From NCBI RefSeq assembly GCF_900182565.1, contig NZ_FXTI01000001.1, positions 478,316-542,315 on the forward strand: a stretch of DNA of 64,000 bases, in the 5' to 3' direction. Shown piece after piece: positions 61,466-64,000 of this stretch. Below the pieces are notes generated by a model. That model did no database searches. It saw only the letters and a program-made list of their open reading frames with translations, and had not been told where the DNA came from. Made by a program: the position numbers and the translations under genes. The stretch is from Melghirimyces algeriensis (GTDB taxonomy: Bacteria > Bacillota > Bacilli > Thermoactinomycetales > DSM-45169). Position 1 is the stretch's first letter, and every line of letters starts with the position of its first letter.

Positions 61466-61647
61466 TCACTCTAACACGTTAAAGTTATGGGTGTCAACCG
61501 GGAAGGCATTGAAAAATTGTAATCGATTGATTCGGTTTCCTATTGGATATGAAAGAGGCCCATATTTTTAATCCAGCCGTTCCGGGTATCCAATGTGGTG
61601 AATATACCTATGTTTGAGTAACTATGTAAAAGAGAGGATGAGACTGT

Positions 61648-64000
61648 TTGAACCGGAAAAGAAGAAGGAAGCGCACTCTGTCTCGTACATTTCAGCCCGA
61701 AGACGAATGGCTCCTTGACCAGATTACCCGGGAAGAACAACAGGAACTCCATTCCAACCAGTCGGTGGATCATACGGATAAAAATGAAAAAAAAGATCCG
61801 GGAAAAAACCCCTCTGTTTCCGAAGATATTGCAAAGTTAAAAAGAAACCGAGTTGGGGGCCGTTCTGAAAAACCGTTTATTTACACTGGAGATATTGTAG
61901 ACCGGTCGATCACGCATGAAAAGTTGGAAAACAACTGTGTGGACAGTTCCAGCATCCGAACAGGAGCTGTGGAAGGCAAGCATCTCAAAAAAGAGAGCGT
62001 GAATACTTCCAAACTTTCCCGTCATGCGGTTACATCGTCCAAACTGGCAGATAAAGCGGTAAAAAGACATCATCTTTCCGATGGATGTGTCGGATCGGAG
62101 CAAATTGAAAAAGAAGCAATCAAAGGTGATCATTTTGCCGACAATAGCATTGAAGGAGATTGTTTAAAAGACAGCAGTGTGGACAGCCACAAGTTGAAAG
62201 ATCGCTCCATCCATGCATGGCATATTGCACCGGAACAGATCCAAGAAGAACATCTGGAAAATACAGCCATTACTGCGGACAAGATCAAAAGTGGATCGAT
62301 CACCACCCATCATTTAGCGAATGAAGCCATCAATCAATCCAAACTGGCCAGCAAAGCTGTCGCTACTGAAAACCTGCAAAATCGAGCGGTGACAGACCAA
62401 AAATTGGCTGAAGGTGCCATCGACAGCAAACATATTCGTTCCGGGAGCATCGGGGAGGAACATCTGGAAGATTCATCCGTACACTCCCATCATCTGCATC
62501 ACAACAGTGTAACGGAAAAAAAGTTGGCACCCAATTCAGTTGGAAGTTCAACCATCAAGAAAAAATCCATCCGAGAAGAACACTTGCTTCCTCAGGCAGT
62601 GAAAGAGGAACATATTCGGGATGGTGCAGTCACACGAAACAAAGTGGCGCCACGTTCCATCCAATCCAAGATGCTTGATTTGGGAAGTATCCGGCCGGAA
62701 CATCTGACTGATCAGGTGATTCGAGAGCAGCATCTCGGCATGCAATGTCTGGACAGTCGGCATATTCAAAACAATGCCGTAAAGGAACAGCACCTTTCCG
62801 AGAATGCGATCACTGGCAACAAACTGGTTGACCATTCCGTAACCACTTCCAAACTTTCTCCAGAATGTGTATCTACAGACAAAATGATCGACCTGTCGGT
62901 TACCACCTCCAAGTTGGCTGATGAATCCGTTACGGAGGATAAACTCTCTCCCCAGAGTGTGGGAGAACGGCAACTGCGGAAAGAGTCTGTTGCCTCTTAT
63001 CACTTGCAGCATCATATTGTGCAAAATCAACATTTAGACATCAATGCCGTCACATCGGAAAAAATCATGAATGAATCCATCTGCTCCCGTCACATCCAAG
63101 CCAACCAGATCTCAGGGAAACATGTGGCTGAAAAAAACATCTCCAACAACCATCTTTGCTCCGGAAGTGTTCATGGGGAACAGATTGCCGAAAAAGCTGT
63201 CAAAAGAGAGCACTTGGCCGACCAATCGGTTGATTCGGAGCATGTGGCTGAAGGTGCTATTGATTCTAGGCACCTTCGAAAAGGGAGCATTAATCAGGCT
63301 CATCTTACAGAGAAGTCGGTTTCATCCAATCATCTCGGAGATACAGTGATTCAGAATCATCATATAGAAAATCATTCTATCACCTCAGAAAAAATCGCTG
63401 ATGGGTCCATCCAACCGGAAAAACTGTCCTTTAATCCATCCTCATTATTTAGTGCCACCGTTCGTTCCGGTGTAACTCCTTTTACGATCAGCAGAGAAGA
63501 GCCGGAAATTTTAATCACAATTCCCTTGGATAAACCTTTTCCTGACTCCCATTTTGTTCCTGTGGCGATGACCGATCAACCTTCCTGCCAGATTCATTTG
63601 GAAAACCGGGTTAGCAATGCCTTTACCCTTCGGATTCAGTTGCTGGACTCACAGACCGGATCTACGGTTTTAGGGTTTCTGTTTTGGATTGCTGTTCCTT
63701 GCCAAACGGATGCATCTCAGTCTCGGAATGTAGCAGTAATCGAGCCTTTGAAACAAAAGGAAGAAGATTTACATGAGTCATTAAAGAGGGAGGATGATGG
63801 GGAGAAGGCCATCATTCCAAAGACGGATGTGGAAAGTGAGGAAACAAACGAAGTCCCTCTGAACCATTCTCCTTTGTCCAGTGTTCAGATCGAGGAAGAT
63901 CCCACTTCAATGGATGGAGCAGAAGGAGACGACGAAACCACCCAGGAAGAAGAAACCGAAGGGGAAAAAACCTTGGATGACTTTTTGCACAATGAAAAAA
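61648..64000 (+). CDS. Large tandem-repeat protein, 5' partial view (at least 784 codons, no stop before the window end): about 103 consecutive 5-residue units with a 10-residue superperiod [H/K]-[L/I]-x-x-x-[S/A]-[V/I]-x-x-x, followed by a non-repetitive domain and an acidic tail
   Basis: Manual translation from TTG 61648 (RBS AGAGAGGATGAG; an in-frame TGA lies 9 nt upstream) stays open to position 64000. The frame was verified at anchors 61921, 63067 and 63961. Repeats are conserved at the protein level and diverged at the DNA level. The ORF is absent from the track because no in-window stop exists. Confidence 0.6.
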   Translation, partial: MNRKRRRKRTLSRTFQPEDEWLLDQITREEQQELHSNQSVDHTDKNEKKDPGKNPSVSEDIAKLKRNRVGGRSEKPFIYTGDIVDRSITHEKLENNCVDSSSIRTGAVEGKHLKKESVNTSKLSRHAVTSSKLADKAVKRHHLSDGCVGSEQIEKEAIKGDHFADNSIEGDCLKDSSVDSHKLKDRSIHAWHIAPEQIQEEHLENTAITADKIKSGSITTHHLANEAINQSKLASKAVATENLQNRAVTDQKLAEGAIDSKHIRSGSIGEEHLEDSSVHSHHLHHNSVTEKKLAPNSVGSSTIKKKSIREEHLLPQAVKEEHIRDGAVTRNKVAPRSIQSKMLDLGSIRPEHLTDQVIREQHLGMQCLDSRHIQNNAVKEQHLSENAITGNKLVDHSVTTSKLSPECVSTDKMIDLSVTTSKLADESVTEDKLSPQSVGERQLRKESVASYHLQHHIVQNQHLDINAVTSEKIMNESICSRHIQANQISGKHVAEKNISNNHLCSGSVHGEQIAEKAVKREHLADQSVDSEHVAEGAIDSRHLRKGSINQAHLTEKSVSSNHLGDTVIQNHHIENHSITSEKIADGSIQPEKLSFNPSSLFSATVRSGVTPFTISREEPEILITIPLDKPFPDSHFVPVAMTDQPSCQIHLENRVSNAFTLRIQLLDSQTGSTVLGFLFWIAVPCQTDASQSRNVAVIEPLKQKEEDLHESLKREDDGEKAIIPKTDVESEETNEVPLNHSPLSSVQIEEDPTSMDGAEGDDETTQEEETEGEKTLDDFLHNEK

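What the first reader, a model, noticed from the sequence alone, without database searches (positions are those of the whole stretch)
61648..64000. Unlisted giant ORF encoding about 100 tandem pentapeptide-length repeats with a decapeptide His/aliphatic superperiod
Reading frame 61648 onward has no stop codon through the end of the window, so it is missing from the ORF track. It encodes a basic N-terminus (NRKRRRKRTLSR), then roughly 515 residues built from 5-residue units whose central residue is always L, I or V.

The preceding residue alternates strictly between H/K and S/A, as in HLKKESVNTS KLSRHAVTSS KLADKAVKRH HLSDGCVGSE and so on. This gives a 10-residue superperiod and, in a solenoid model, two ladders of His residues. 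It does not match the canonical pentapeptide-repeat consensus A(D/N)LXX, because position i-2 is polar.

After the repeats comes a roughly 120-aa non-repetitive domain (SATVRSGVTPFTISREEPEILITIPLDKPF...GFLFWIAVPCQ) and then an acidic E/D/T-rich tail.

The DNA is not a simple satellite: nucleotide copies are diverged while the protein periodicity is conserved, which argues for a real protein under selection. I know of no described family with this exact repeat. Its function could be structural (spore or surface beta-solenoid), metal-binding (His ladders) or ice-binding and adhesin-like. The protein is truncated by the window edge.
Basis: seen in the sequence. Interest (0 to 1): 0.85.

Follow-up and report, generated by a model that had tools for sequence, protein, structure and literature searches.

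The report
Phage-fibre-like WIAG-tail protein of a spore-former
The open reading frame is a real, essentially complete 790-residue protein of the catalogued but unstudied "WIAG-tail" family of spore-forming Bacillales, built like a phage tail fibre (51 ten-residue shaft repeats plus a lectin-like end knob) and most plausibly a spore-surface fibre.

Summary
An ORF starts at TTG 61648 and runs off the window, but an identical public contig puts the stop only 6 codons beyond it, so the protein is 790 aa and not giant. It has:
- a basic N-terminus;
- 51 gap-free decapeptide units (L-x-x-x-[S/A]-[V/I]-x-x-x-[H/K], aa 83-592);
- a roughly 85-aa beta-sandwich domain;
- an acidic tail.

The claim that no family is described is wrong on two counts. 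The C-terminal domain passes NCBIfam NF012201 ("WIAG-tail domain"). The repeats match phage tail-fibre families (PHROG 892, E 2e-75), except that the usual Lys is mostly replaced by His.

AlphaFold gives a confident six-strand sandwich resembling H-type lectins and phage fibre tips. It gives no beta-solenoid for the repeats, at low confidence.

The source is Melghirimyces algeriensis. Relatives occur only in endospore-forming Bacillales. There they sit beside spoVR, YheC/D ATP-grasp, CotS, glycosyltransferase and A-ENA genes, and none has a signal peptide. An exact 12-mer upstream of the start codon is shared across genera.

Best reading: a fibre-plus-knob protein of the spore surface. This rests on inference; expression and localisation are untested. 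It is a new member of a catalogued, uncharacterised family, of moderate interest.

The parts
61599..61610 (+). Conserved upstream 12-mer TGAATATACCTA, 37 nt before the start codon. Probably a promoter (-10 region) or regulator site; the sigma factor is not assigned.
   Evidence: The identical 12-mer lies 36-41 nt upstream of the start codon in orthologs L003-L006 (L007 has TGAATATAtagt). It occurs exactly once in the window and once in each of those loci. By my arithmetic, about 0.008 exact matches are expected in 64 kb on both strands.
61632..61638 (+). Ribosome-binding site GAGAGGA
   Evidence: Read directly. Orthologs have GAAAGGA/GAAAGGG at the same distance from the start.
61648..64000 (+). 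Coding sequence for aa 1-784 of a 790-aa WIAG-tail family protein. The stop lies 21 nt beyond the window.
   Evidence: The gene caller on the identical Logan contig called the same 790-aa product.
61648..61893 (+). N-terminal region, aa 1-82. It comprises a basic stretch MNRKRRRKRTLSR, a conserved acidic helix-like motif DEWLLDQITREEQQEL, a polar linker, and the conserved entry motif KPFIYTGDI.
   Evidence: Aligned with orthologs. There is no hydrophobic segment: the maximum Kyte-Doolittle 19-residue average in the first 60 aa is -0.88, so no signal peptide or membrane span.
61894..63423 (+). 51 tandem decapeptide units (aa 83-592), consensus L-x-(D)-x-[S/A]-[V/I]-x-x-x-[H/K]. This is the fibre-shaft repeat shared with phage tail and head fibres, in a His-rich variant.
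63424..63468 (+). Junction aa 593-607 (LSFNPSSLFSATVRS), with the conserved EKLSFNP motif linking shaft and knob
   Evidence: Conserved across the family in alignments A2 and A5.
63469..63696 (+). WIAG-tail domain (aa 608-683; W680-I-A). A six-strand beta-sandwich with an H-type-lectin-like fold.
63718..64000 (+). Acidic, probably disordered C-terminal tail (aa 691-784 of 691-790; net charge -21)
   Evidence: pLDDT is below 50. Acidic tails also occur in the relatives P0121, P0122, P0124, P0125, P0129 and P0130.

Best explanation
The ORF encodes a non-secreted, fibre-type protein of the WIAG-tail family of Melghirimyces algeriensis. It is laid out like a phage tail fibre. A short basic N-terminus with a conserved helix is the presumed anchor. 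A long shaft follows, made of 51 decapeptide repeats homologous to the shaft repeat of phage tail and head fibres. A C-terminal six-strand beta-sandwich knob with an H-type-lectin-like fold is the presumed ligand or sugar-binding tip, and an acidic floppy tail ends the protein.

Most likely it oligomerises, probably as a trimer like its phage counterparts and like H-type lectins. I infer that it is made in the sporulating mother cell and laid onto the spore surface with the knob outward. On this reading it is a non-collagen counterpart of the BclA-type nap or 'ruffle' fibres. The His-for-Lys substitution would give the shaft a pH- or metal-sensitive cationic stripe.

Shown: sequence anatomy, family membership, repeat homology, knob fold (predicted), taxonomic range, and the neighbourhoods of relatives. 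Inferred: oligomeric state, timing of expression, location, and ligand binding.
For: Anatomy and family:
- The anatomy is described.
- NF012201 scores above its curated cutoff.
- The repeats match PHROG tail-fibre families (phrog_892, E 2.3e-75).
- The full-length protein search found 310 homologs at E <= 0.001. Among the best 120, those carrying a Pfam domain or a source name are mostly phage tail-fibre or tail-spike proteins, and none has the WIAG domain.
- The repeats also match 72 phage records annotated as tail fibre or minor tail.
- The only solved chain with the repeat is the trimeric, fibre-like head decoration protein of Legionella phage LME-1 (9EG4 chain H, E 3.7e-7).

Knob:
- The knob is predicted confidently, at pLDDT 89-96 except one block at 81.
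- It resembles H-type lectins and phage fibre tips.

Not a phage gene:
- Its neighbours are housekeeping genes.
- Orthologs of 1,065-1,562 aa occupy a conserved chromosomal site in six Thermoactinomycetaceae genomes.

Link to sporulation:
- The family was found only in endospore-forming Bacillales: Thermoactinomycetaceae, Paenibacillus and Caldalkalibacillus.
- There is no signal peptide or membrane span, as for coat and exosporium proteins.
- Thermoactinomycetaceae orthologs lie between three YheC/D ATP-grasp genes plus a GNAT gene on one side and spoVR on the other.
- A Paenibacillus-like locus has a CotS-family coat protein (TIGR02906, 283 bits against cutoff 172.7) and glycosyltransferases immediately downstream.
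- Two Paenibacillus genomes place the gene in a cluster with YheC/D, GT4 and GT2 glycosyltransferases, sugar-nucleotide enzymes and a gene of Pfam PF26595 A_ENA. A-ENA are alpha endospore appendages (PMC13111695).
- A 12-mer upstream element is shared by the window gene and its orthologs.
Against: - There is no expression, proteomic or localisation data for any family member.
- The window copy itself lacks the sporulation-gene neighbours. It sits between a T-box/serine-pathway operon and a short-chain dehydrogenase gene.
- The conserved 12-mer does not match any sporulation sigma consensus I could recall.
- The A_ENA hit is a precomputed annotation that the local Pfam copy did not reproduce.
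- The oligomeric state is untested, and the AlphaFold monomer model of the shaft is of low confidence.
Confidence: 0.42

Rival explanations
1. The repeats fold as a monomeric pentapeptide-like beta-solenoid with two ladders of His residues, acting as a metal-binding, ice-binding or adhesin scaffold.
For: - The i/i+5 aliphatic periodicity is perfect over 510 residues.
- Position 10 is His in 26 of 51 units.
- Some phage homologs carry a precomputed Pentapeptide_4 hit (P0001, P0093).
- An Ala-rich phage homolog weakly matches designed pentapeptide-repeat proteins and DotG 10-residue repeats (E 0.002 to 1e-5).
Against: - There is no Pfam pentapeptide hit at E <= 1.
- Position i-2 is polar or charged rather than small.
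- AlphaFold predicts no beta strands in the repeats, only one short helical turn per unit, at pLDDT 45-75. Foldseek found no solved solenoid match.
- The same position is Lys in 78% of 2,771 phage repeat units, which argues for an exposed position rather than a buried ligand ladder.
- Homologous repeats occur in fibre proteins that are trimeric.
Confidence: 0.12
2. A domesticated phage fibre is used outside sporulation. It could be a receptor-binding fibre of a phage-derived particle (tailocin, PBSX-like element or gene transfer agent) encoded elsewhere, or a hyphal surface adhesin exported by a non-classical route.
For: - The repeat homology to tail fibres is strong, and the knob fold resembles fibre tips.
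- The window copy has no sporulation neighbours.
Against: - No phage structural genes lie within about 10 kb in the window or in any related locus.
- All PHROG matches lie in the repeats (aa 69-598), so no virion-attachment domain was detected.
- The family-specific basic N-terminus, His enrichment and acidic tail are absent from the phage homologs.
- There is no export signal.
Confidence: 0.15
3. The protein is an intracellular His-rich protein, for example a Ni/Zn/Co buffer or a scaffold, with no surface role.
For: - There are 42 His in the 510 repeat residues (8.2%).
- There is no signal peptide.
Against: - The long, indel-free shaft and lectin-like knob form an architecture typical of extended fibres.
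- The neighbours in relatives are coat, glycosylation and appendage genes rather than metal-homeostasis genes.
Confidence: 0.08
4. The gene is a decaying prophage remnant or a spurious ORF with no function.
For: - It has a non-ATG start.
- It stands alone in a non-syntenic position.
Against: - The 790-codon frame is intact.
- Its architecture, its N-terminal motifs and an upstream 12-mer are shared with orthologs in other genera.
- The protein periodicity is kept while the DNA copies have diverged.
Confidence: 0.03

Closest known systems
WIAG-tail domain proteins (NCBIfam NF012201) of Thermoactinomycetaceae, Paenibacillus and Caldalkalibacillus
   Same: - The C-terminal domain passes the curated cutoff.
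- The overall architecture matches: a basic N-terminus, His-rich decapeptide repeats, the EKLSFNP junction and the WIAG domain, often followed by an acidic tail.
   Different: - It is the shortest complete Thermoactinomycetaceae member seen: 51 units against 70-134, and 790 aa against 1,065-1,562.
- It has WIAVP instead of WIAxG.
- It is not at the yheCD-spoVR locus.
- The family has a name but no studied function. The only paper holding the term uses it as an annotation label.
Phage tail-fibre and head-fibre proteins with the K-L-A-D-G-A-V-T-x-x decapeptide repeat (PHROG 892, 28766, 21412; Legionella phage LME-1 head decoration protein, PDB 9EG4 chain H)
   Same: The 10-residue unit has the same aliphatic positions 1 and 6, a small residue at position 5 and a cationic residue at position 10. 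Both have a fibre-plus-tip layout.
   Different: - Position 10 is His in 51% of units here, against 5% in phage units.
- There is no phage context.
- There is no virion-attachment domain.
- It adds a basic N-terminus and an acidic tail.
BclA, L-BclA and F-BclA collagen-like spore-surface fibrils of the Bacillus cereus group
   Same: This is a functional analogy only: a repetitive shaft of variable length, a C-terminal globular knob, no signal peptide, and glycosyltransferase and appendage genes nearby in relatives.
   Different: There are no GXX collagen triplets and no C1q-like knob (one search lists none). The proteins are not homologous.
Pentapeptide-repeat (Rfr) proteins and the DotG/IcmE 10-residue repeats
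   Same: Aliphatic residues recur every five positions, with a 10-residue superperiod. Phage homologs show weak matches to them.
   Different: The consensus A(D/N)LXX is not met, no HMM hit was found and no solenoid was predicted.
H-type lectins (Helix pomatia agglutinin, discoidin, SLL-2) and H-type lectin tips of phage fibres
   Different: There is no sequence-level match to Pfam H_lectin. Sugar-binding residues and trimer formation were not tested.

Membership tests
WIAG-tail domain family (NCBIfam NF012201) | HMM score at or above the curated cutoff | tested here: met
   50.3 bits against a cutoff of 33, E 1.9e-13, aa 608-683 matching profile positions 5-78 of 80
WIAG-tail domain family (NCBIfam NF012201) | Conserved core motifs (G..PF, VVAMTD.P.C, G..FWIA.G) | tested here: met
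   The invariant F, V, A, G and W columns are all present. The window has FVPVAMTDQPSC and GFLFWIAVP. Only the final G of WIAxG is replaced by P.
WIAG-tail domain family (NCBIfam NF012201) | Domain located directly after His-rich decapeptide repeats in a Bacillales protein | tested here: met
Phage tail-fibre proteins carrying the decapeptide shaft repeat (PHROG 892 and related) | Profile match to the repeat region | tested here: met
   phrog_892 E 2.3e-75 with 10 stretches, phrog_28766 E 7.7e-46, phrog_21412 E 5.5e-36
Phage tail-fibre proteins carrying the decapeptide shaft repeat (PHROG 892 and related) | Encoded within a phage or prophage structural module | tested here: not met
   Neighbours are aminotransferase, serA, SDR, pyrophosphatase and a two-component system. 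Orthologs sit beside spoVR and yheCD.
Phage tail-fibre proteins carrying the decapeptide shaft repeat (PHROG 892 and related) | N-terminal virion or baseplate attachment domain | tested here: not met
   All PHROG best stretches lie in aa 69-598. Pfam finds nothing in aa 1-82.
Phage tail-fibre proteins carrying the decapeptide shaft repeat (PHROG 892 and related) | Homotrimeric fibre | not testable with these tools
   Only monomer AlphaFold2 was available. The monomer shaft has low confidence.
Pentapeptide-repeat proteins (Pfam PF00805, PF13599 and others) | A(D/N)LXX consensus with a small residue at i-2 | tested here: not met
   The i-2 positions (unit positions 9 and 4) are E/S/K/H/D and G/N/E/K.
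Pentapeptide-repeat proteins (Pfam PF00805, PF13599 and others) | HMM match | tested here: not met
   No Pfam pentapeptide family at E <= 1. NCBIfam penta_HetL scores 10.9 bits against a cutoff of 260.
Pentapeptide-repeat proteins (Pfam PF00805, PF13599 and others) | Right-handed quadrilateral beta-helix fold | tested here: inconclusive
   The AlphaFold models show no strands in the repeats, but pLDDT is only 45-75. Foldseek against the PDB found no match.
H-type lectin domain (Pfam PF09458) | Six-strand beta-sandwich superposable on HPA or discoidin | tested here: met
H-type lectin domain (Pfam PF09458) | Sequence-profile match | tested here: not met
   No H_lectin hit at E <= 1
H-type lectin domain (Pfam PF09458) | Trimer with an inter-subunit sugar site | not testable with these tools
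   This needs a multimer prediction or an experiment.
BclA-type collagen-like exosporium fibres | GXX collagen triplets and a C1q-like C-terminal domain | tested here: not met

The most novel reading that the evidence does not exclude
WIAG-tail proteins are a previously unrecognised class of spore-surface fibres in Paenibacillaceae and Thermoactinomycetaceae. They would be built from a captured phage tail-fibre shaft and a lectin-like tip, and would fill the role that collagen-like BclA nap and 'ruffle' fibrils play in the Bacillus cereus group. No ruffle gene was identified for Paenibacillus F-ENA-2 appendages (PMC12357932). The His-rich shaft would make them pH- or metal-responsive. The recurrently linked YheC/D ATP-grasp ligases and glycosyltransferases would modify them after translation.
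Probability: 0.3. Interest if true: 0.65.

Novelty: new member of a known kind. Interest (0 to 1): 0.42.

Why it matters
- If the spore-surface reading is right, the family would be a concrete candidate for surface fibres or appendage tips of spores outside the Bacillus cereus group. In those organisms the components are largely unknown.
- It would also be a clear case of a phage fibre module taken over for a cellular structure.
- It explains a practical nuisance. The long, recently amplified repeats break assemblies, so most database entries of the family are 'partial'.
- As it stands, the window gene is an uncharacterised member of an already catalogued family, and the functional claim rests on neighbourhoods of relatives.

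Tried and rejected
- **Word-indexed homolog search with the C-terminal domain alone:** no hits. The exhaustive HMMER search was needed.
- **Alignment A2 as a query for the search for related loci:** too diverse. A3 worked.
- **Foldseek of the low-confidence full-length model against the PDB:** nothing usable.
- **phmmer of the protein against PDB sequences:** nothing. Only a 30-column repeat profile found 9EG4_H.
- **Synteny between the window and the ortholog loci:** none. I cannot say whether the window gene is the ortholog moved elsewhere or a paralog.
- **Sigma-factor assignment of TGAATATACCTA:** I compared it by eye with the sigmaA, B, E, F, G, H and K consensus sequences as I remember them. 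None fitted convincingly, and the spoVR upstream regions lack the motif. It is left unassigned.
- **CATATG-type -10-like motifs in Paenibacillus-type loci:** these are suggestive of mother-cell sigma factors, but they are single instances judged from memory.
- **Local Pfam scan for the precomputed A_ENA hit:** not reproduced. The model is probably missing from that copy.
- **PADLOC:** the only hit is PD-Lambda-5_A, at repeat level. I do not take it as evidence of a defence role.
- **Literature search for 'decapeptide repeat' plus 'tail fiber':** nothing found.
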